A stretch of 64,000 nt of DNA from Naegleria gruberi (lineage: Eukaryota): the NCBI GenBank assembly GCA_000004985.1, contig GG738868.1; one strand, 5' to 3'. Position 1 is the stretch's first letter. Every line of letters starts with the position of its first letter. Shown here in pieces: positions 7,865 to 49,076 of this stretch. The notes beneath the pieces are model-generated. The model was not told the origin of the DNA, ran no database searches, and saw nothing but the letters and a program-made list of their open reading frames with translations. The position numbers and the translations under genes were made by a program.

Positions 7865-8023
7865 ATAAATGTTCCATTTGGTCAACCAATTCAATTGAAT
7901 CATTGTAATCATTCGCAGTTAGCAAATAAATGGACTAATTAACATTGCAACCAATCAACTGTGCATGTAACCCATATTGATAATATCATTACGGTAAACA
8001 CTTCATATTGGTTATAAAAAAAA

Positions 8024-9248
8024 ATGAACGACACATACGAAGAACAAGTGGATGAAGTTGGTATCAGTGGTGGTGGAGGAGGTGTTGGTGGATCATCAGC
8101 CTCCAATCAACATCGTTATTATAGTGCAGGAGATTTAATGGATGAAAAATCAAAGAAACGAGTTTCTAGAGGTTTTATTGCCATTGCTGCTTTTGTTATT
8201 TTGGTAATTGCTTTGGGATTGTTAGCCTTGTTGATTTTGTCGATTGCTTTATATTGGACACGAGCAAACAAACACTTATATCCGAATCCCGAATATTCAC
8301 AGAGTACAGATTATATGCATTTTGTAGTTGTAGGCGACCAGGGAAGAGGAAATGATGCACAAAAAACTGTTGCTGCCTCTATGGGAAAATATTGTGAATC
8401 AAGTGCAAGTATTGGCAAAGCATGTCAATTCGTTATTGGTGTTGGAGATAATATTTATGATAATGGTGTCACTGATATGTATGATCAACAATTTAAGACC
8501 AAGTTTGAAGATATTTATGGAACTATTGATGGTTTGAAGGATTTGAAATGGTACATGATGCTTGGTAATCATGGTATGTAACTTGTTAATTAATGAGATA
8601 TTAACTGAGTTTTTAGATTATAGATTGAATCCTGAAGCTCAAATTCAATATTCTCAAATTAATCCACGTTGGATTATGCCAGATTATTTCTATTCATTTG
8701 AAAAGATATCAACTCAAGGAGGATTCAATGTTTCATTTGTTGTGACTGACACTAATCCATTCGTTAAGAGTTATTTCTCTAAATCAGTAATGAATCAAAC
8801 TGCTTTAAATAATAGAAAGGTCAATAATACCGATCAATTAACCATGATTGAAAGTATCATGGAAAAGAATTACAAGAATCCAAACAAATGGACTTTAGTT
8901 TTCGGTCATCATCCTGTATACTCAACTGGTGTTCACTATGATACTCCTGAACTTTTGGCAAGTTATGAACCAATTTTTGATAGATATAAATTACCACTTT
9001 ACATGAGTGGTCATGACCATTTATTGAACTGGCTCTCCAATCCAAAACTTCCATACACTCAATATGTAATTTCTGGTGGAGGTGCTGGTAATACCAAACC
9101 AATTTTGTACAATGCAAATTCCTTGAACGAGTGGAATGATTCTGGATTTTTCTCAATTGAAATTCAATATTCTTTCATATTCGCCAGAGCTTTTGATAAG
9201 AATGGAAAGGAATTGTGGAAATTTAGAATTGACAAACCAACTTATTAA
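8024..9248 (+). CDS. ACP5: Tartrate-resistant (purple) acid phosphatase type 5-like metallophosphoesterase with an N-terminal signal-anchor TM. join(8024..8573,8617..9248).
   Basis: The metallophosphatase motifs GDQG, GDNIYDNG and GNH|D are present. The last is rebuilt across a 43-nt GTATGT..TAG intron. Then '…SGHDHLLNWL…YVISGGGAGN' matches ACP5 (GHDHNLQYL…YVLSGAGNF). A hydrophobic segment (FIAIAAFVILVIALGLLALLILSIALY) lies near the N-terminus. Confidence 0.75.
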
Positions 9249-9359
9249 ATATTTTATTGATAATTTAAATGAACTATCATGTGAATAGTATTATCTTCAC
9301 AATTTCAAATCTTAAAATATGTTTTTCTAAATTTTTGTTGAATTTCAAGCAACAAAAAA

Positions 9360-9856
9360 ATGGCCAGAAAGAACAATAAGAAAATAAAGAAGAGGTAAGA
9401 AAAATATTTGAACTTTTGCGATGCTGAGACAAAAATCAATTTCCGTTCGGTTTTTATTATTAATTTACCATCATGATTATTGATTGTGTAAAATCTTGTG
9501 GAACAAAACTTCGGATTGGATGTGATTAAAATTGTCATCAATTATTATTCAACAACAACAATAGATATAACGATTATTTACTCGAGGAAGAAAAGAGAGA
9601 CGAGGAAAAGAAAAAAGCCAAAGAAGAAGTTAGAAAACAAAAGAGAGAAAATGAAGAAATGTTGGATGAAGTTAAGAACAATCCTCTTGTAAAGGAAGCA
9701 AACAAACAAGCTAAAATAGCCGAAAAGAAGGAAGCCAAAAAGAAAAAGGATGAAGCTGCAATGCAAGATGTTCAATCAGAAGACAAAATGACAGACGAAA
9801 GTCAAGACGTTGAAAAACGACCAAGACGTCACAAGCAAAGAAATAAACCATACTAA
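9360..9856 (+). CDS. Small highly charged K/E-rich protein (about 109 aa), two exons: join(9360..9394,9565..9856).
   Basis: 'MARKNNKKIKKR|RYNDYLLEEEKRDEEKKKAKEEVRKQKRENEEMLDEVKNN…KRPRRHKQRNKPY*'. Exon 1 is 35 nt with a GTAAGA donor. The 170-nt intron ends CAACAATAG. The frame continues into the track ORF 9659..9856. The family is not recognised. Confidence 0.35.
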
Positions 9857-9857
9857 T

Positions 9858-11879
9858 TTATTCCACTTTTTCTTTTTGTTTGAAAAGAGAAATTATTGAG
9901 GTTCCAACCAAGACAGTCCAAGTTGGAATCATGACAACACAGAAACTGATATAGAATAGGTTTTGAGGTAGGTCAGTAATTGTGAAAAACCATTCGAGTT
10001 GACTTGAAATAGCTTCTCCAAAATAGTGTTGTCTTACAAGAATATTTACAATAATCAAATTGAATGGACAAGCTGCAAGTAAGGATACAAGCTGAACAAG
10101 CTTGGCAATAATGTTAGTTGGAAAAACTGTTGTCAAAATGCACAAAATTGATAAATAAGAGGAAAGGAAAATACACAAGGCACTCGAATAAATCATGATT
10201 GCTCCTACCATAATTCCAGAAAAAGCAATAGAAAGAGATTTGGCATATCTCCAATGGATTGGATTTGGTTTAGCTTTGAATAAATACTCGTAAATTCTAT
10301 TAACAACTGGGTAGAACAAAGTGAGAGAAGAAAGTACCAAAATTACAACTATTGAGATCCAATAAGTGGCAAATTGTTGCGAATCAAGAGCCAAATGACG
10401 AAGAGTATCCTTCAATATAATTGGTGTCAAATAAATTAAAACTCCATTAGCAAAATTAGAAATAACAAAAATGACTGCATGAGCAAGTTCTTTTTCGGAT
10501 GCAGTACTGGCATAGTAGTTTCCAATAAATTGAATAGCCAAACAACCAAGGAACATTAATAAGTTTGGTAAATAATGTTCAAATCCATAATAATGTTGTG
10601 AATCAGTAACATAGTACAAAAAGAACGATTGATGCAACTCTTCAATAAGGTTGTTCAAGCTTCTTATACTAATTTCCATAATTCTTCCCATCATGTAATA
10701 GGTATGCATGACACCAATTTTTGTAGTGTGCTGAGTAACAGAGTTAGTCAAAGTAATTGCATGAGTTAATTGTTGTCTGAACCAGGCATGTGGGCCAGTT
10801 GGGATGGAAATCAATTGATTATACCAATGGTTCAATACAATAACACTTCGTTCCATAAAAGAGTTTGGCAAATCAATTCCAAATGATCTAATCATTTCCA
10901 AAAATGCATGATGTAAATAGATAAATGCTGGTACATGATCCTTATAGTTTGGATACTGTTGCATGGTGGCATCAACATTTGGTGTTGCAGTCAGGTCAGC
11001 TTTAAAGAAAGTAGGAAGACCACCACGACCCATATTATAATGACTTTCACTCAATAAACCAGTCACAACATTGACCATGTCAAGATTTGGAAGTTCTCCA
11101 TTGACACCTTCAGTAAGAACAGCAACTTGTTGAAAATCAAATGATTCCAAATCCAAAGTAATGGCCTCTCTCATTCTACCAGTAGGAATAGCAGCAGATT
11201 TGATAAAAGCTTCTTCACCAGCCCAATTATGTTCATATCCATCACTAATAACCAAAATAATATCATGATTAAGCCATTTAACTCTTGAAATATATTTCAA
11301 CAATGCCAACGAGAAGGCCAAACTTTCAGATTTAAAATATGGAACTGTCAATATAATAGATTCCTTTCCATTACCTCTTCCTGGTCTAATAGCAATATAT
11401 AAATTTTCACCTCTCACATTTTCAATCCTATTAATATATCTTCTTTCAACACTATACTCATGTCTCTTCATTTCACTATAAAAAGGAATACTCTCAGAAT
11501 TTAAATAACTTTCAACAGCACTATAAGTTTGATTTCTAAAATCCAACTTGGCTGATCTACTATCCAATGTTTTTAATTGATTCAAAATTGAAACTCCATA
11601 ATCAGCATCTTGTTGATTAAATTCTGGTGTATGAAAAAACACAGAGAGAGCATTCTCCGAATAATAAATGTTTTTCGTAACGAAGGGCCAACATAAAAAC
11701 CATCCAATGGCTCCGATAAATAATAAATAGGAAACAATATTAAAGTATTTAAATAGGTGAAGAATAACTCTTCTCATCATGGGAACTTGTGTTGTATTGT
11801 TATTATTTTCATCAACATTAGGATCTCTTTCATGATCACCACGAGCGATCACTTCCTTCTCTTCGTCTATTTGTTCCAT
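9858..11879 (-). CDS. GPAA1: GPI transamidase component GAA1 (GPAA1)-like. It has an N-terminal TM, a lumenal M28-like domain and a C-terminal multi-TM region.
   Basis: 673-aa ORF with a true ATG at 11877-11879. The topology and size are typical of GAA1 (an early TM, a large hydrophilic domain, then a hydrophobic C-terminal third). I assign it by overall resemblance rather than a single motif. Its stop (9858) lies 1 nt from the stop of the convergent gene at 9856. Confidence 0.55.
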   Translation of the reverse strand: MEQIDEEKEVIARGDHERDPNVDENNNNTTQVPMMRRVILHLFKYFNIVSYLLFIGAIGWFLCWPFVTKNIYYSENALSVFFHTPEFNQQDADYGVSILNQLKTLDSRSAKLDFRNQTYSAVESYLNSESIPFYSEMKRHEYSVERRYINRIENVRGENLYIAIRPGRGNGKESIILTVPYFKSESLAFSLALLKYISRVKWLNHDIILVISDGYEHNWAGEEAFIKSAAIPTGRMREAITLDLESFDFQQVAVLTEGVNGELPNLDMVNVVTGLLSESHYNMGRGGLPTFFKADLTATPNVDATMQQYPNYKDHVPAFIYLHHAFLEMIRSFGIDLPNSFMERSVIVLNHWYNQLISIPTGPHAWFRQQLTHAITLTNSVTQHTTKIGVMHTYYMMGRIMEISIRSLNNLIEELHQSFFLYYVTDSQHYYGFEHYLPNLLMFLGCLAIQFIGNYYASTASEKELAHAVIFVISNFANGVLIYLTPIILKDTLRHLALDSQQFATYWISIVVILVLSSLTLFYPVVNRIYEYLFKAKPNPIHWRYAKSLSIAFSGIMVGAIMIYSSALCIFLSSYLSILCILTTVFPTNIIAKLVQLVSLLAACPFNLIIVNILVRQHYFGEAISSQLEWFFTITDLPQNLFYISFCVVMIPTWTVLVGTSIISLFKQKEKVE

Positions 11880-12014: not shown

Positions 12015-12960
12015 ATGGAATTGGCAACACCACTTGCTAACAATACCCTCTCTGATGATCATCATGGTAAGTAGATGATGATCGGAACAAATATTGAACA
12101 ATTAGGAATTAATTAGATTATTCATTTCCTGATGATATTTGCTTTGAAATTTTGTCATTTCTTGATCCGTGGTCGATTTTGAAAAGTTGTTTATTAATTT
12201 CCAAGCAATGGATGACAATTATTGAACAACGTGTTCAGCTTTCGTTAGAGTTTACGGAAAGGATGAATTTAAGATCGAGCCAATTGTTTTTAAAGAGCCA
12301 ATTTTTAGGAAATATTATCAATCTACAATTATCAGATAAGCAGATGAGTCTTGAGGTTTGGGAAAATGTTGTGAATGCTCTATTGTCTATGGGGAAATTA
12401 AGAATATTGATGGTTGAGAATAATGTGGATATTGAGGGAGCTAAAGTTATTGGAAATATCAAAAGTTTAACCAAGCTCAATATTAATACCATGTCAGTTG
12501 ATTTTTATAGTAGATCTTTTTGCAGACAGGTAAAGAAGGAGCTGAATATTTAAGCGAATTAATCAATTTGAAAGATCTTGATATTTATGATGATAGTATT
12601 GGTGATGAAGGAGCTTTGTCAATTTTTAACTTGAGCAACCTTACCCACCTTGATATTTCAGCAAACGAAATTAGTGATGAAGCTGCGAAATCAATTGGTA
12701 ATTTAAAAAATTTGACTGTTCTTATAATTGGAGCTAATTTAATAAGTGATGAAGGTGTTAAACCAATCACTAATATGAGCCAACTGACTCATCTTGATAT
12801 CAGCAGCAACCTAATCAAATCCACTGGAGCAAAATCTATTAGTGAAATGAAGAATTTAACACATCTAGATGTTTTTGAAAATAATATTGGTGAAGAGGTA
12901 CTGAGTGGAATGAAAAATTTGAAAGAATTCAGAGAAAATTATTGGGACTTTATGAATTAA
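12015..12960 (+). CDS. F-box/LRR protein (ribonuclease-inhibitor-type 24-aa LRRs). Model: join(12015..12066,12117..12496,12526..12960). The last junction is a 29-nt GT..AG gap, which is anomalous.
   Basis: Exon 1 is 'MELATPLANNTLSDDHH' with a GTAAGT donor. Exon 2 is 'DYSFPDDICFEILSFLDPWSILKSCLLISKQWMT…' (F-box). The LRR units (L.NLTHLDIS.N.I…GAKSI) continue in a different frame from 12526. Removing 12497..12525 (gttgatttttatagtagatctttttgcag) restores exact 24-aa register (…LTKLNINTMS|TGKEGAEYLSELIN…). Confidence 0.5.
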
Positions 12961-12985
12961 ACAATTATTTGAAGACGTTATATAT

Positions 12986-14527
12986 TTAAGGTAATTTCAT
13001 AAGTCTGACAGTGTGGGCCATATGATTGACAGTTTCAGCACCAATTACTAAGACTACCAGATCGCCAGGTTGGGCAAATGACTTTTCAACCAAATATTTA
13101 CAACAAAGCTCTTCGACACTGTGAGGACCTGTGATGTAATCCGTGTTATGGATTAGTACAGGAGTAATTCCCCAACCTAATGTGAGACGATTGAATGTAA
13201 ATTCTTGATCTGTCAATGCAATGATTGGAACATTAGGTCTGTATTGAGAAATACTGACAGCTGTTTTCCCTGAATTAGTGATACAACAAATTAATTTAAC
13301 ACCAGAGTGCTTATTTGCAATAGTAGAAGCAGCCATGCAGCTAGCATTTTCAATAGAGTCAGTGGCATTACTGTTGAAATCATTCTCATGAGAGTCCAAT
13401 CTACCAAACTTGTGAGAATTGATGTCAGCTGTTCTCACAATTAAGTGCATAGTTTTGACAGAAAGAACTGGATATTTTCCCATAGCTGATTCATTACTCA
13501 ACATGACTACATCTGTTCCATCAAAACATGCATTGGAAACATCTGTAACTTCAGCTCTGGTTGGAATTTTACTTTCAACCATAGATTGCAGCATTTGGGT
13601 GGCTGTAATATCAATTTTACCTGCTTTGGAGGATTTTTCAATTAATTCCTTTTGGAAAATTGGTAATTCATGGAAATTAGTCTCAATCATCAAATCACCT
13701 CTATGTGAAATAATTATCAGAAAAAAAATCATTCTACAAACTTACCTTGCAACCATCAATCCATCAGCTTCCTTAAGAATGGCATCAATATTTCTAATAG
13801 CTTCAATTCTCTCAATTTTTGCAATAATTGGAATAGTTTTACCAGCAAATTTCATCATTAGATTCTTGGCATCAATAATATCTTGAGCAAATCTGACAAA
13901 ACTCAAACAAACATAATTAATTTCACCACATTTCATACCAAATTCCAAATCAGCAATATCTTTTTCTGTCAATGCAGGGGCTGAAATAGTTGCCCCTTCA
14001 TCAACCATATTAATTCCCTTTCTTTGAGATAACATTCCTCCTGTTACAACTTTACAAACCATTTCAGTTTCTTCTTGATTTTTAGAAACAACGTGCACTT
14101 CCAAATAACCATCATCAATCATTAATTTAGAGCCAGGTCTACAATCCCTAACCAAATTTGGATAAGAAGTAGAAACTTTTCTAGGTCTAGTTTCATTATC
14201 TTCACCACTCGCAATAACACTCTTATCTGTAGTGATCACAATTTCCTCTCCCTCAACAATCATGAAAGATTTACCCAATTTACCAATTCTAATCTTTGGA
14301 CCTTGAAGATCTTGAACAATTGCAAATGGAATTCCACCCAATTCCTTCTGTGCCTCTCTAATCTTTTGAATCGTCTCCAAATGAACGTTGTGTTCTCCAT
14401 GACTAAAGTTTAATCTAGCTGCGTTCATTCCTTCCATCATCATTTGCATTATTATAGATTTATCGGAAGAGCTTGGGCCGATCGTGCACAATATTTTGGT
14501 TCTTCTATCAGATGCTGTTCCGTTCAT
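12986..14527 (-). CDS. PYK: Pyruvate kinase. complement(join(12986..13700,13746..14527)).
   Basis: '…RTKILCTIGPSS…MNAARLNFSHG…GPKIR…MVA|RGDLMIE…' plus the C-terminal 'MLSNESAMGKYP…' are pyruvate kinase hallmarks. One 45-nt GTAAGT..CATAG intron splits the MVARGDLGIE motif in phase 2. Confidence 0.92.
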
Positions 14528-14781
14528 GTTGTTGTGTTACTGTTTTGGTGAGTGATCAAAAAATTGATTAGATCAAGCTTGATGGAACAGATTAATGTGG
14601 AGATATTTTTTTGCTTGCTTGTAATTTGACAAGTTCATTGTAAGGGAAAGGTTTGAAAGAGCATTCTGGTTGTGATGATGAGATGTTCACAATGAATTGT
14701 CTAATGGCCAAATAATTCATTGGACAAAGATGTAGAATTTACATTTATGGAAATCATTTTTAAATTGAAATTTAGAAAAAA

Positions 14782-16476
14782 ATGAAGGAAGATATTACCA
14801 GAACGCATCTTGTAACGAATTATGGTAATAGAGATTTCTCGCATAAGCATCGATCCAATATTTACAAGCAATATCGTCAGAGTTTTAAAAATTCACCTCA
14901 GACAAATGAACAATCTGGCCATGATGACTCATTCGTCCAGAGTCGATTAGCAACACTGCTACAACAATATTTGTTTAAAACTAATCTCAGTTATCAGGTA
15001 GAAACAATTAGTGGAGAAGAAATGAGACTCTTAGAACAGTACAATGAATTGGCTTCGTATAAGAGACAATTCGATCCAGAAGGTTCACCTCCAGAACTTC
15101 CTGAATTCTTAAATGAACCATTCTATTACATTATTGATTTGAGAAATCTCATGTCAAGACCCAATTTTAAAACTCTCTTTCCAGAGTTTGCAAGAACCGC
15201 CTTAACTGAAGAATTTCGACAGGATTTGGAAATATTTTGGAGGGCGTGTTGTAAAGTATTGAATAGAAACTTTGCATTCATAACCCATTTAGATTTGGGA
15301 GAGAATGATTTGGAAAATCTAAAGCCATTCAGAGAATTATCTCAACTCAAACGTTTGACATGTCTTTCATTAAGAAATAACAAGATTTTATTCATTCAAG
15401 AATTGAGATACTTCTCTGGATTGGTTATTAATGAATTGGATATGTCTGGTAACCCATTCATTAACACTGGTGGTTATGTGAGGGAAGATGTCATTTACAT
15501 GTTGTCATTGTTCCCATTTTTAGAAATAGTGGATCAAAATTTCATTCCAGACGATGTCAAAGAAGAGATTGTTATTCACTCATCTTCCAATGTGTCTTTG
15601 TTACCAGATATTAATATTCAAAGTACATTTGAAAGTCAAGAAGAAAGGGCCTGGATTGAATGGTTTCTCAATAATTACTTTACAACATTCGATACTAACA
15701 GAGCTGAAGTAATGTCATGTTATCAACATAATGCAATCTTCTCGTTTTCATACGATATCAATGCCTATGCTGATTTACCTGAGACATTCGAATCTAAATT
15801 AAGTTTAAGATATCTGAAGCCATTCTCCAGAAATTTACTTTACATTCTCAGAGATTCTACTGCAAGAGAAACTCTTCTGAACGAATCTCTCACTCTTCGA
15901 ATTGGAAAAGAAGCAATTTATGAACTTCTTATTGCTATGCCAAACACAATTCACAATTTAACAACTAATTTAATTGATGTATCGTCATATGACGTTATCA
16001 AAATAGTAGATGAACTCAATCCATATCAATCCCCAATTACTAAACATATTATGGTCAATTATCATGGACAATGCCAACAAATGGACGAAAAAGGTATTAA
16101 ATATCCAAGGTCAATTGATTGTCAATTGATTCTCACACCTAATTTGAATCCACTTACTCAACAAACTCTTCGTTACCTCATCCAAAATCAACAATATCAA
16201 ATTAGACCATATGTTTCACTCAGTTTGACCAAGATCTTCAAAGGACATGAAATAGAAAGACCTTCAACTCCTTATTCTTTCGTTGATACTGGATCAAGAA
16301 CTGAATTAACAGCGCTACACGAAAGCATAATAGTTCAATTCACATCAATTACTGGATTAAGAAGAGAATATGCACTTCCATGTTTGGAATATTCAAATTG
16401 GAATATTAGTAACGCAATTAACACTTTTAACACGGAAAAGATGAATGGAAATATTCCACTCTATTGTTTTCAATAA
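14782..16476 (+). CDS. NXF: Nuclear mRNA export factor (NXF1/TAP/Mex67 family) with an LRR, an NTF2-like domain and a C-terminal TAP-C/UBA-like domain.
   Basis: 564-aa ORF. An LRR segment (…ITHLDLGENDLENLKPFRELSQLKRLTCLSLRNN…LDMSGNPF…) is followed by an NTF2-like region (…WIEWFLNNYFTTFDTNRAEVMSCYQHNAIFSF…) and a C-terminal UBA-like tail (…LTALHESIIVQFTSITGLRREYALPCLEYSNWNISNAINTF…), as in NXF1. Confidence 0.6.
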   Translation: MKEDITRTHLVTNYGNRDFSHKHRSNIYKQYRQSFKNSPQTNEQSGHDDSFVQSRLATLLQQYLFKTNLSYQVETISGEEMRLLEQYNELASYKRQFDPEGSPPELPEFLNEPFYYIIDLRNLMSRPNFKTLFPEFARTALTEEFRQDLEIFWRACCKVLNRNFAFITHLDLGENDLENLKPFRELSQLKRLTCLSLRNNKILFIQELRYFSGLVINELDMSGNPFINTGGYVREDVIYMLSLFPFLEIVDQNFIPDDVKEEIVIHSSSNVSLLPDINIQSTFESQEERAWIEWFLNNYFTTFDTNRAEVMSCYQHNAIFSFSYDINAYADLPETFESKLSLRYLKPFSRNLLYILRDSTARETLLNESLTLRIGKEAIYELLIAMPNTIHNLTTNLIDVSSYDVIKIVDELNPYQSPITKHIMVNYHGQCQQMDEKGIKYPRSIDCQLILTPNLNPLTQQTLRYLIQNQQYQIRPYVSLSLTKIFKGHEIERPSTPYSFVDTGSRTELTALHESIIVQFTSITGLRREYALPCLEYSNWNISNAINTFNTEKMNGNIPLYCFQ

Positions 16477-47319: not shown

Positions 47320-49076
47320 TTATTCTCCATTATTGGTTACCCTCTTGAATACCTCAGAGTACTTTTCAATTTGTCTATAGACGAGAAAGTTTTCCTTCAC
47401 TCGTTTCTCTGAATTAATTCCATAAAGAGTTCTCTTCTTTTCATCTAACAGCATTTCGGATAGAGTTTGAGCAATTTCAAAATCATCTTGAGCATTCACT
47501 AAGCGACCATCAATTCCATCCCTCAATTGAATTCTCAATCCAACAGCTTGTCTTGAACCCATCACTGGAATTCCCTTAAACATTGCCTCAGTACAAGTTA
47601 ATCCGAAACTCTCTCTTAAACTATTCTGAACCACAACAAGTGAACATCTCTGAAGAGCATTGACAATGAGAGCATTTTGTTGAACGTTATTCATTGGAAG
47701 TGAGAGAATGGCAACATCCTCCTGTAGTTCAGGACTCAAATCAGCATAGAAAACTGACAATTCCTCAAATACTTGCAATCCTTCAGGATCATCTTGAATG
47801 AATTTAGGATCTGGACCTGCCAATACTTTACAAAACAATCAAATTTCTTTGTTTTTCAAAGAATTAACTTACCTAGCTTGACTCTCTTTAATAATTTCAT
47901 TTCTTCTTCTGTTAATTTCTCTGACATTGTTTCAAGATTTTGTTTCATTCTCAACCAACCTTTCATGAGTGGAATCCAACCTTTCAATCTGTCCCATCTA
48001 CTTATTTGAGTGACAATTGGATTGAATGGAATGCCTAATAGATATGGATCTCTGAATAATCTCTTAACTTTGTGTGGATATTTGGATTTCCACTCAAATT
48101 CTTCTTCACATCTAGTCAACCCAGATTGAACTAGAATATTCATAATTTCATTGGTTGATAAATGTTGATTCTTTGGATTGAATGGTGATAAACTTGGATA
48201 AATAATTGAAAAGTTATTCTTCAAATATGAAGGAGCATACTCTGGTGAAGTAAAAATTGAATGGTCAACCATTTGAATATATGGCTGAAGGAAATTCCAA
48301 GCACATCTTGTTTGAAAATTATGTTCATCCAATCCAATATGACATCTGAATATGACCTTCACTCTATTTCCAAATACTTCACGAATGCTCTTTACTAATC
48401 CCAAAGGTTGAGGATCATGTAATACTTTATGTGAAATAATTTCACAAATTATTAAGCTAAACTTCAAACCCATTATTGTAATACATACTCACAATATCAC
48501 CCTCACTGATAATACTACCAGTCAGGAAGCCCTCACTATTGGCATTCTCTCTATTCACATTTTCGTAAACAATTCGATCCTCAGATGTAAAGTCACGATC
48601 TTCTCCACTGCCATGAATGAAATTGTGAATCTTTTTAGTTACACTGAAAAACATTTCATCATCTGTATTGATTGTTAACCACGATGCCTGCATAATTGTA
48701 TATTGATTTAGCAATGTTTCATTATTTTGTTTTGTATTAATAAACAATACATACAGTATAGCCAACTTCATTCATTGTACCACATAATCTTAACTGATCG
48801 ATTAGAGAGAATGAATTGAATAAAAGAGATGATAATACGTACCAACATTTCTGCAACACCTCCTCCAACTGCTGTTGAATTAATGTGCCATATCTTTCTA
48901 TTGGAAAATGGTTTCACTTTCCTTTTCATTTTACCTTAAGAATGTTAATTCACTAACTGAATTATTTAAATAATATATTTACCAATTGCTTCAGAAAAGG
49001 AAGCATACTTTGATTGTTCTTCCAATGATAACGTATCTTCTTTGTCTTTGGCTTCCTTTACGAATTTTAGAGGCAT
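47320..49076 (-). CDS. Glycosyltransferase family 4, trehalose-synthase (TreT)-like, 6 exons. complement(join(47320..47825,47873..48424,48519..48687,48755..48793,48843..48934,48983..49076)).
   Basis: The spliced product '…RKIWHINSTAVGGGVAEML|LRLCGTMNEVGYT|ASWLTINTDDEMFF…NVNRENANSEGFLT|VLHDPQPLGL…|VLAGPDP…LRESFGLTCTEAMFKGIPVMGSRQAVGLRIQLRDGIDGRLV…' is colinear with archaeal/bacterial TreT (VNSTSFGGGVAEIL…NVNRENSKF…VLVHDPQPAAL…REGFGLTVTEAMWKGKPVIGRAVGGI). All five introns (47-94 nt) are GT..AG and phase-consistent. Confidence 0.65.

What the first reader, a model, noticed from the sequence alone, without database searches (positions are those of the whole stretch)
12497..12525. 29-nt GT…AG segment that must be removed to keep the F-box/LRR gene in frame: a micro-intron or a frameshifted pseudogene
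The LRR-coding frame of exon 2 runs into a stop 17 codons after …LNINTMS. The remaining LRRs (perfect 24-aa units) are in another frame starting at 12526. Deleting gttgatttttatagtagatctttttgcag (29 nt, GT…AG) joins the frames. It also restores exact 24-residue register to the repeat that spans the junction (LTKLNINTMS|TGKEGAEYLSELIN vs LTHLDISSNLIKSTGAKSISEMKN). Every other intron I could model in this window is 42-170 nt. A 29-nt intron would therefore be a distinct size class. The alternative is a 1-nt frameshift in a decaying gene, or a sequence error.
Basis: seen in the sequence. Interest (0 to 1): 0.5.

Follow-up and report, generated by a model that had tools for sequence, protein, structure and literature searches.

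The report
Possible 29-base intron, Naegleria F-box gene
An unannotated F-box/leucine-rich-repeat gene of the amoeba Naegleria gruberi is interrupted by 29 bases that begin GT and end AG and must be removed to read the full protein, but sequence alone cannot say whether the cell splices them out as an unusually small intron or whether they have inactivated this copy of the gene.

Summary
Window 12497-12525 is a 29-nt GT…AG segment. Removing it joins two reading frames into a 288-aa F-box plus LRR protein. That protein aligns without a gap at the junction to seven homologs and is modelled as a continuous LRR solenoid.

The window is the published Naegleria gruberi NEG-M genome. The gene appears to be unannotated, and no product of the locus was found in public protein sets.

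The interpretation stays open. Evidence for an intron:
- The boundaries are exact, phase 0 and in register.
- The 3' end is acceptor-like.
- The gene is otherwise intact and carries a conventional 50-nt first intron.

Evidence against:
- The donor GTTGAT scores -5.3 bits, against +7 to +13 for 17 modelled introns in the window. That is below most random GT sites.
- Its 29 nt lie well under the shortest intron here (43 nt).
- The spliced product puts Thr where all seven homologs have a hydrophobic residue.

My estimates: a spliced micro-intron 0.4; a 29-nt insertion or a 5'-truncated, unspliceable intron (a dead allele) 0.45 together; other explanations 0.15. A simple 1-nt frameshift is unlikely. 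RNA-seq or RT-PCR across 12496/12526 would settle it. Interest is modest.

The parts
12015..12066 (+). Exon 1 (ATG at 12015; MELATPLANNTLSDDHH plus the first base of codon 18)
   Evidence: Sequence and spliced translation. The HH just before the F-box lies next to the HH of P0001 and P0002 in alignment A1, although in the wider alignment A3 a gap separates them.
12067..12116 (+). Intron 1: conventional, 50 nt, GTAAGT…TTAATTAG, phase 1
   Evidence: Its donor scores +11.9 bits on the window's donor matrix.
12117..12496 (+). Exon 2: F-box (about 12125-12229), linker, LRR 1 and the first 10 residues of LRR 2 (…LTKLNINTMS)
   Evidence: Translation, Pfam F-box-like, F-box and LRR hits, homolog alignments. 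The codon-usage score is low, 0.086 bits per codon.
12497..12525 (+). The 29-nt GT…AG segment (GTTGATTTTTATAGTAGATCTTTTTGCAG), phase 0: a candidate micro-intron, an intron remnant or an insertion
   Evidence: Donor -5.3 bits, acceptor +4.5 bits. It duplicates nothing in the gene or the window.
12511..12513 (+). TAG that closes the exon-3 frame upstream, so any frame switch must lie after it
   Evidence: Sequence and ORF list.
12551..12553 (+). TAA reached if the 29 nt are retained (truncated product of about 163 aa)
12526..12960 (+). Exon 3: the rest of LRR 2 (TGKEGAEYLSELIN), LRRs 3-7, C-terminal tail and TAA (12958-12960)
   Evidence: AlphaFold2 model with pLDDT 83-94 for residues 101-250.
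12897..12898 (+). Site where a second N. gruberi-like strain (ENA contig L004) carries 9 extra in-frame bases, GGATTCCAA. These give the canonical IGEEGFQVLSGM, and NEG-M lacks them

Best explanation
The 29 nt are a phase-0, GT-AG spliceosomal intron in the second leucine-rich repeat of an unannotated Naegleria gruberi F-box/LRR gene. In this reading the spliceosome removes 12497-12525 and joins …ATG TCA to ACA GGT…. The mRNA then encodes a 288-aa protein with an F-box that would dock on Skp1 and a seven-repeat LRR solenoid that would bind substrate. If the segment is retained, translation stops 18 codons later.

Shown here: the boundaries, the frame and register restoration, and the fold of the predicted product. 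Inferred, not shown: that splicing happens at all. The intron would be far shorter than any other intron modelled in this window and would use a donor with no consensus. Splicing may therefore be inefficient or regulated.
For: - Exact GT…AG boundaries restore a 288-codon ORF.
- This excision scores best of the 135 GT-AG solutions against both homologs.
- It lies on the plateau of best profile scores among all possible 29-nt deletions.
- Seven F-box/LRR homologs align with no gap at S145|T146.
- The chance of such a GT…AG window within 10 start positions is 0.024.
- The acceptor TCTTTTTGCAG scores +4.5 bits. That is in the top 15% of all AG sites and inside the range of the modelled introns.
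- The gene is otherwise intact. It has a conventional 50-nt GTAAGT first intron and Pfam F-box and LRR hits.
- The AlphaFold2 model shows a 24-residue strand period across the junction, with pLDDT 83-94. Foldseek matches FBXL17, FBXL2, Skp2 and LegL1.
- The one indel in exon 3 between NEG-M and a second strain is in frame.
- There is a precedent. Trichomonas vaginalis has a validated class of 23-25-nt introns with divergent 5' ends and poly-T bodies, alongside introns of 56-196 nt (PMC12316389).
Against: - The donor TCA|GTTGAT scores -5.3 bits against +7.0 to +13.0 for the 17 modelled introns. 71% of all GT dinucleotides in the window score at least as well.
- Every other abutting coding-ORF pair in the window has a GT[AG]NG donor solution. 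This pair has none.
- 29 nt compares with a shortest of 43 nt among the 17 modelled introns (the four confirmed against GenBank proteins are 43, 45, 46 and 80 nt). Total intron length in genes of the N. lovaniensis and N. fowleri loci is 47, 61 and 65 nt or more. A 31-nt alternative elsewhere proved spurious.
- There is no TTAAC/CTAAT/CTGAT-like branch motif at a usable distance.
- The spliced product has Thr where all seven homologs have I, F, V, Y or L.
- Base composition gives no support, +0.25 bits.
- No protein from this locus appears in 1.84 billion cluster representatives, in the 90%-identity collection or by exact look-up.
- No syntenic ortholog exists in N. fowleri or N. lovaniensis.
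Confidence: 0.4

Rival explanations
1. A 29-nt insertion has disabled this copy of the gene. The ancestral sequence read …ATG TCA GTT GGT AAA GAA… (M S V G K E), and 29 nt (12500-12528 or an equivalent rotation) were inserted after the Val codon. In this reading the 'GT' is simply the Val codon GTT and the AG is chance. The NEG-M allele is then a young pseudogene producing a truncated protein of about 163 aa or none.
For: - Deleting 12499-12527, 12500-12528 or 12501-12529 gives the best LRR profile score (34.1 against 30.5). It restores a hydrophobic Val where all seven homologs have I, F, V, Y or L.
- It explains why the 'donor' looks like a random GT and why the length is outside the intron range.
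- Indels of 2-11 nt are frequent between NEG-M and a second strain: 4 indels against 13 substitutions in 2.75 kb.
- NEG-M also carries a derived 9-nt deletion that removes the conserved Gly of the last LRR.
- The gene has no ortholog at the syntenic site in other Naegleria species.
- Exon 2 has a low codon-usage score.
Against: - It needs a coincidental in-register GT…AG, probability about 0.024, with an acceptor-like T-run plus CAG.
- The 29-mer copies nothing in the gene or the window, so its source is unexplained.
- There is no second lesion in 288 codons.
- The other indel in the gene is in frame.
Confidence: 0.25
2. The segment is a crippled intron. A conventional intron of about 45-60 nt (GTAAGT…) once sat at this phase-0 site. 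An internal deletion then removed everything between its GT and its 3' half. What remains has true intron boundaries and a true acceptor region but no 5' splice-site consensus and too little length, so it is no longer spliced, or only rarely. The allele is effectively dead.
For: - It accounts at once for the exact GT…AG boundaries in register, the acceptor-like 3' half, the consensus-free donor and the abnormal shortness.
- TTGAT at +2 to +6 resembles the CTGAT and TTGAT branch-like motifs of other introns here. Its A lies 24 nt from the AG, inside the 12-27-nt range seen in three of them (my reading of the intron sequences).
- Indels do occur inside introns between strains, for example 3 nt in the PK intron.
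Against: - It requires a deletion starting precisely at +3 to +5.
- A motif of the yTrAy kind is expected by chance in about a third of such segments (my estimate).
- It does not explain Thr at the hydrophobic position.
- No ortholog or paralog locus was available to show an ancestral longer intron.
Confidence: 0.2
3. A lineage-specific 30-nt coding insertion (10 residues, VDFYSRSFLQ) has since lost one T from the T5 run at 12517-12521. That loss could be a real 1-nt frameshift or a sequencing error.
For: - The 29 nt contain no stop in the exon-2 frame.
- Adding one T at the second T-run gives a continuous ORF (read from the sequence).
- One paralog, P0002, has a 2-residue irregularity at the same loop.
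Against: - None of the seven homologs has an insertion here.
- It needs two events plus a chance GT…AG.
- Nine spliced or unspliced models from this window match GenBank NEG-M proteins exactly. I recall that assembly as Sanger-based, where homopolymer errors are uncommon.
Confidence: 0.05
4. The frame is recoded without canonical splicing. The options are -1 ribosomal frameshifting between 12514 and 12550, IRE1/XBP1-type endonucleolytic excision, or excision guided by the 8-bp inverted repeat in the exon flanks.
For: - The shift needed is -1.
- The 5' junction CAG|TTGA fits the IRE1 loop pattern CNGNNGN.
- The exon flanks TACC(A)TGTC and GACAGGTA can pair.
Against: - There is no X XXY YYZ slippery heptamer, and frameshifting would add 10 residues and break the register.
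- The 3' junction does not fit CNGNNGN. Cutting after G3 at both sites would remove 28 nt, not 29. The gene is also not a bZIP factor.
- The fold is no more stable than shuffled sequence, z = -1.04.
- There is no Rfam match.
Confidence: 0.03

Closest known systems
Conventional short spliceosomal (U2-type, GT-AG) introns of Naegleria gruberi
   Same: GT and AG termini, a phase-0 position between codons, a T-run followed by CAG at the 3' end, and removal that restores the ORF. It sits in a gene that also has a typical 50-nt intron.
   Different: It is 29 nt against 43-180 nt for the 17 introns modelled in this window. Its donor is GTTGAT rather than GTAAGT, GTATGT, GTGAGT or GTAAGA. It has no clear branch motif.
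Type B micro-introns of Trichomonas vaginalis (23-25 nt; PMC12316389)
   Same: An intron-poor protist in which a very short intron class coexists with introns of 56-196 nt. The short class has a divergent 5' end (T allowed at +3, T at +8 and +9) and a largely poly-T body. One such intron lies in an LRR gene.
   Different: The Trichomonas class is uniform in length and keeps a TCTAA branch site fused to the 3' end at -12 to -8. The corresponding bases here are ATCTT. G at +4 is not among the bases seen there. It is a different supergroup, and no class has been shown in Naegleria, only this single unverified case.
Tiny introns of ciliates and nucleomorphs (Stentor 15 nt, Bigelowiella 18 nt, Paramecium and Nyctotherus about 25 nt; PMC12316389, PMC9505925, PMC5014332)
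   Same: They show that spliceosomes can remove introns of 30 nt or less.
   Different: In those genomes tiny introns are the norm and, as I recall, keep at least GTA at the 5' end. In the Stentor study some spliceosomal proteins also look adapted (PMC9505925). Here the genome's norm is about 45-60 nt.
Young unitary pseudogenes in fast-evolving F-box/LRR families
   Same: The gene is lineage-specific, with no syntenic ortholog in N. fowleri or N. lovaniensis. A single frame-breaking lesion sits in an otherwise readable ORF. The same allele has a derived deletion in another repeat. The gene is unannotated and no product of it was found in public protein collections.
   Different: The lesion is bounded by GT…AG exactly in register and has an acceptor-like 3' end. 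There is no second disabling lesion.
F-box/LRR (FBXL-type) substrate receptors of SCF ubiquitin ligases
   Same: An N-terminal F-box (Pfam F-box-like and F-box above their cut-offs) followed by an LRR solenoid. Foldseek matches include FBXL17, FBXL2 and Skp2.
   Different: The LRRs are the 24-residue ribonuclease-inhibitor/LRR_6 type with an IGxEGA motif. The best structural match is Legionella LegL1. No Skp1 binding or substrate is known.

Membership tests
U2-type GT-AG spliceosomal intron | GT at the 5' end and AG at the 3' end | tested here: met
   12497-98 is GT and 12524-25 is AG.
U2-type GT-AG spliceosomal intron | Extended 5' splice-site consensus of the species (GTRWGT in this window) | tested here: not met
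   TCA|GTTGAT scores -5.3 bits against +7.0 to +13.0 for 17 introns, below 71% of all GT sites.
U2-type GT-AG spliceosomal intron | Branch-site motif upstream of the 3' splice site | tested here: inconclusive
   Other introns show TTAAC, CTAAT or CTGAT. Here there is only TAGAT, 11 nt from the AG, or TTGAT overlapping the donor.
U2-type GT-AG spliceosomal intron | Pyrimidine-rich tract and YAG acceptor | tested here: met
   TCTTTTTGCAG scores +4.5 bits, in the top 15% of AG sites and within the range of the modelled introns.
U2-type GT-AG spliceosomal intron | Length within the range the species' spliceosome is known to handle | tested here: not met
   29 nt against 43-180 nt in the window. 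The 31-nt alternative in another gene was rejected. No genome-wide distribution was available.
U2-type GT-AG spliceosomal intron | Absent from mature mRNA | not testable with these tools
   No transcript data were reachable. No product of the locus appears in the protein collections. The metagenome scan for the junction found nothing.
U2-type GT-AG spliceosomal intron | Removal restores a conserved, uninterrupted coding sequence | tested here: met
   288-aa ORF, an ungapped junction in seven homologs, and a continuous solenoid in the model.
Trichomonas-type B micro-intron class | Uniform length of about 23-25 nt, +3 A/T, +4 C/T, T at +8 and +9, TCTAA at -12 to -8, poly-T body | tested here: not met
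   Length is 29 nt. +3 T, +8 T and +9 T fit, but +4 is G and -12 to -8 reads ATCTT (against PMC12316389). This is an analogy only.
IRE1 (HAC1/XBP1-type) unconventional intron | Two stem-loops with CNGNNGN loops, cleavage after G3, and excision that shifts the frame of a bZIP mRNA | tested here: not met
   The 5' site CAGTTGA fits, but the 3' site CAGACAG does not. Those cuts would remove 28 nt. The fold has z = -1.04. The gene is an F-box/LRR gene.
Programmed -1 ribosomal frameshift site | Slippery heptamer X XXY YYZ followed by a stable structure in the overlap of the two frames | tested here: not met
   No such heptamer lies in 12514-12550. There is no significant structure and no Rfam hit.
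Pseudogene | The reading frame is disrupted in the mature transcript | not testable with these tools
   It is disrupted only if the 29 nt are retained.
Pseudogene | Further disabling lesions or signs of relaxed constraint | tested here: inconclusive
   There is no second stop or frameshift. But NEG-M has a derived 9-nt in-frame deletion in the last LRR, Thr and Met sit at conserved positions of the junction repeat, and exon 2 has a low codon-usage score.
F-box/LRR (FBXL-like) protein | F-box motif followed by C-terminal leucine-rich repeats | tested here: met
   Pfam F-box-like 24.6 bits (cut-off 24.3), F-box 22.3 (20.5), LRR_6, LRR_4, LRR_8 and LRR_14. Foldseek matches FBXL17, FBXL2 and Skp2.
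F-box/LRR (FBXL-like) protein | Binds Skp1 and recruits substrates to an SCF ligase | not testable with these tools
   No interaction data. The F-box region of the model has low confidence, pLDDT under 50 for residues 1-46.

The most novel reading that the evidence does not exclude
Naegleria gruberi, and perhaps Heterolobosea more widely, may have a small hidden class of roughly 30-nt introns with degenerate 5' splice sites. This would parallel the type B introns of Trichomonas vaginalis. Gene finders and RNA-seq aligners set to a larger minimum intron size would miss such introns, so genes like this F-box/LRR gene would stay unannotated. This locus would be the first example.
Probability: 0.15. 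Interest if true: 0.6.

Novelty: new member of a known kind. Interest (0 to 1): 0.3.

Why it matters
If the 29 nt are spliced, N. gruberi would handle an intron about 14 nt shorter than any other modelled here, using a donor with no consensus. That would suggest a second mode of intron recognition in a free-living excavate, like the one validated in Trichomonas. It would also mean that annotations of Naegleria genomes, including the pathogen N. fowleri, may miss genes with such introns.

If the 29 nt are not spliced, this is an ordinary young pseudogene allele in a fast-evolving F-box/LRR family. It then matters only as a correction to the annotation.

In either case the locus is a gene or gene relic that appears to be missing from the reference annotation.

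Tried and rejected
- **Alternative introns.** All 135 GT-AG excisions that join the frames were scored. The 101-nt one (12425-12525) keeps register but deletes a conserved LRR. None of the seven alternative donor sites I scored has a donor score above +1.0 bits. A donor at the consensus-looking CAG|GTAAAG (12530) has no in-frame acceptor that keeps register.
- **Duplication or repeat origin.** The 29-mer's best local match in the gene or the window is no better than shuffled sequence gives. An apparent likeness to the next repeat's LDIYDDS codons did not survive that test.
- **Transcript or allele evidence.**
  - Exact look-ups of the 288-aa product, seven read-through ORF variants and three exon-3 ORF variants all failed.
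  - The word-index homolog search and the exhaustive HMMER search found nothing above 50% identity.
  - The metagenome scan for the spliced or unspliced junction found 0 matches.
  - The metagenome relatives scan found 0.
  - N. gruberi gene positions are not indexed.
- **A second strain.** ENA contig L004 starts at window 12798 and so misses the junction.
- **Synteny.** The Gaa1 and PK neighbourhoods in N. lovaniensis, N. fowleri, Willaertia and another ENA Naegleria contain no F-box/LRR ortholog.
- **Other sub-40-nt introns in the window.** The only tempting case is 31 nt at 48462-48492 with a GTGAGT donor. It is wrong: the 64-nt solution restores the DIVILHDPQP motif, which I recognise from memory as typical of trehalose-synthase-type glycosyltransferases.
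- **Recoding mechanisms.** IRE1-type excision, -1 frameshifting and structure-guided excision were all rejected.
- **Literature.** I found no length distribution or minimum size for N. gruberi introns. The only figures were a mean of 203 bp, and a 30-bp minimum chosen for N. fowleri read mapping (PMC8296547).

Full report
**What is there**

On the + strand an ATG at 12015 opens a short exon (12015-12066). A conventional 50-nt intron follows (12067-12116, GTAAGT…TTAATTAG). Exon 2 (12117-12496) then encodes an F-box and the first LRRs.

The exon-2 frame reads through GTTGATTTTTATAGTAGATCTTTTTGCAG (12497-12525) and stops at a TAA at 12551-53, after 18 further codons. The remaining LRRs lie in the -1 frame. 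That frame is open from just after a TAG at 12511-13 to a TAA at 12958-60. Removing exactly 12497-12525 gives an 867-nt ORF of 288 aa.

The stop comes after 18 codons, not 17. The repeats are also not all perfect 24-mers: the first has 23 residues and the last is 3 short relative to another strain.

**Which organism, and is the gene known?**

Nine spliced or unspliced models from this window match GenBank proteins of Naegleria gruberi NEG-M exactly. Examples are EFC44504, EFC44503 (pyruvate kinase), EFC44389 and EFC44516, all recorded on one contig of 427,589 nt. The window is therefore the published reference genome.

The neighbours are Gaa1 (9858-11879, minus strand, annotated) and pyruvate kinase (12986-14527, minus strand).

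The F-box/LRR gene appears to be unannotated:
- GenBank numbers for plus-strand genes run from EFC44389 (8018-9248) to EFC44395 (34346-35305), and exactly five other plus-strand genes fill that gap.
- UniProt accessions D2VFN5, N6 and N7 leave one slot between the gene at 8018-9248 (EFC44389) and PK. I take that slot to be Gaa1, which is annotated, though I did not see its accession. This numbering argument is my inference.
- An exhaustive HMMER search of 1.84 billion cluster representatives found nothing above 50% identity.
- Exact look-ups of the spliced product and ten ORF variants failed.

One caution: the word-index search missed a 99%-identical PK fragment. I do not rest the argument on that tool alone.

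**Is the 29-nt segment foreign to the coding sequence?**

Yes.
- In an alignment with seven F-box/LRR homologs (29-42% identity), none has a gap or insertion between the residues matching S145 and T146.
- Of the 135 GT-AG excisions that join the two frames, this one scores best against both close homologs.
- When every possible 29-nt deletion is scored against a profile of 16 repeat units, scores form a plateau at start positions 12492-12501, and the GT-AG solution lies on it.
- An AlphaFold2 model of the spliced product is a continuous solenoid. Strands fall every 24 residues across the junction and pLDDT there is 83-94. It matches FBXL17, FBXL2, Skp2, LegL1 and NOD2.

A GT…AG 29-mer falls within any 10 consecutive start positions with probability 0.024 in this window. 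The 29-mer copies nothing else in the gene or the window.

It would need a 10-residue insertion that no homolog has.

**Does it look like a Naegleria intron?**

Only in part. I modelled 17 introns in the window. Four are confirmed by exact identity of the spliced product to GenBank proteins (43, 45, 46 and 80 nt). One more is supported by restoration of a conserved motif (64 nt).

- **Length and donor of the modelled set.** All 17 are 43-180 nt long. All begin GTAAGT, GTATGT, GTGAGT or GTAAGA.
- **Donor of the candidate.** It scores -5.3 bits against +7.0 to +13.0 for the set, and 71% of all GT dinucleotides in the window score at least as well.
- **ORF pairs.** This is the only abutting coding-ORF pair in the window with no GT[AG]NG donor solution.
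- **Acceptor.** It is compatible at +4.5 bits (top 15% of AG sites), but Naegleria acceptors are weakly defined.
- **Composition.** Neutral, +0.25 bits.
- **Branch site.** No good branch motif lies at a usable distance.
- **Product.** Splicing puts Thr where all seven homologs have I, F, V, Y or L. Keeping the GTT (Val) and deleting 12500-12528 instead fits the family better, but that deletion has no splice-site termini.

**Evidence from a second strain**

An ENA metagenome contig (L004) from an N. gruberi-like strain differs from NEG-M by 13 substitutions in 2.75 kb (0.47%) and by four indels of 2-11 nt. It covers only the last 54 codons of the gene.

That part is identical to NEG-M except for 9 extra in-frame bases. 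These give the canonical IGEEGFQVLSGM, so NEG-M carries a derived deletion in its last repeat. Two things follow. Medium-sized indels are common in this species. And this NEG-M allele has changed recently, though in frame. The contig does not reach the junction.

**No ortholog**

The neighbourhoods of Gaa1 and PK in N. fowleri and N. lovaniensis contain no F-box/LRR gene, and nor do the PK locus of Willaertia and the Gaa1 locus of another ENA Naegleria. The gene is lineage-specific, and I could not compare intron positions.

**Weighing the explanations**

The exact in-register GT…AG favours an intronic origin by about 40 to 1 over a chance insertion. The donor, the length and the Thr each pull the other way, by factors of several.

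The outcome depends on an unknown: how many functional N. gruberi introns are this short and this degenerate. Trichomonas vaginalis shows that such a class can exist beside conventional introns. Its type B introns are 23-25 nt, with divergent 5' ends and poly-T bodies, and have been validated by RT-PCR (PMC12316389). Predicted introns in the heterolobosean Acrasis kona are reported as 9-95 bp (PMC11589745). A 30-bp minimum was judged appropriate for mapping N. fowleri reads (PMC8296547). Nothing comparable has been shown for N. gruberi.

My estimates:

| Explanation | Probability |
|---|---|
| Spliced micro-intron | 0.40 |
| 29-nt insertion after an ancestral Val codon (dead allele) | 0.25 |
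| 5'-truncated, unspliceable intron (dead allele) | 0.20 |
| 10-residue insertion plus 1-nt frameshift or error | 0.05 |
| Recoding mechanisms | 0.03 |
| Unaccounted | remainder |

Frameshifting, IRE1-type excision and structure-guided excision were examined and rejected.

**Verdict**

As it stands this is a modestly interesting oddity in an unannotated, fast-evolving gene. It would become more interesting only if splicing is shown and further cases are found.

Noticed in passing
window 9358-9853 (+): A small ORF (9530-9853, high codon-usage score) lies 4 nt from the Gaa1 stop and converges on it. It is homologous to the 109-aa gene at the same position in N. fowleri and N. lovaniensis (48-55% identity, E 1e-13). 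A likely first exon, ATGGCCAGAAAG…AAGAG|GTAAGA, lies near 9358-9398. By accession numbering it is not annotated in GenBank N. gruberi.
   Followed up: partly
window 12897/12898; L004 2601-2771: NEG-M lacks 9 in-frame bases (GGATTCCAA, coding G F Q) that a second N. gruberi-like strain has in the last LRR. The other strain's version fits the repeat consensus, so the NEG-M deletion is derived.
   Followed up: yes
window 12798-15549 against L004: Divergence between the two strains is 13 substitutions in about 2750 nt (0.47%). There are four indels: 9 nt in F-box exon 3, 11 nt in the intergenic spacer at 12972, 3 nt in the PK intron at 13730, and 2 nt just upstream of the PK ATG. Indels are frequent relative to substitutions.
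   Followed up: partly
window 12487-12495 and 12525-12532: The flanks of the 29-nt segment form an 8-bp inverted repeat with one bulge, TACC(A)TGTC and GACAGGTA. Pairing would loop the segment out. The fold of the whole region is not significant (z = -1.04).
   Followed up: partly
window 12527-12535: A consensus-looking donor, CAG|GTAAAG, sits 4 nt downstream of the proposed acceptor, inside the codons T G K. It scores only +1.0 bits on the window's donor matrix, and no in-frame intron starts from it.
   Followed up: yes
window 48425-48492 (-): Overlapping donors GTGAGT and GTATGT in a trehalose-synthase-like gene allow 31-, 64- or 103-nt introns. Only the 64-nt one restores the DIVILHDPQP motif. 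A three-exon model of this gene was not checked against GenBank (a shorter two-exon model did not match).
   Followed up: partly
tool behaviour: The word-index homolog search did not list P0150, a 261-aa ENA fragment 99% identical to the PK query that is the representative of the cluster holding the N. gruberi PK. Absence from that search is therefore not proof of absence.
   Followed up: yes
L001 (Logan SRR15442816, 1442 nt): The closest full-length homolog, P0001 (42% identity in the alignments), is an uninterrupted 309-aa ORF. Fragments of further LRR genes lie on the opposite strand within 15-160 nt of it. The source organism was not identified.
   Followed up: no
window 12113-12550: Exon 2 of the F-box/LRR gene has one of the lowest codon-usage scores among likely coding segments in the window, 0.086 bits per codon against 0.14-0.55 for most. 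Exon 3 scores 0.26.
   Followed up: no
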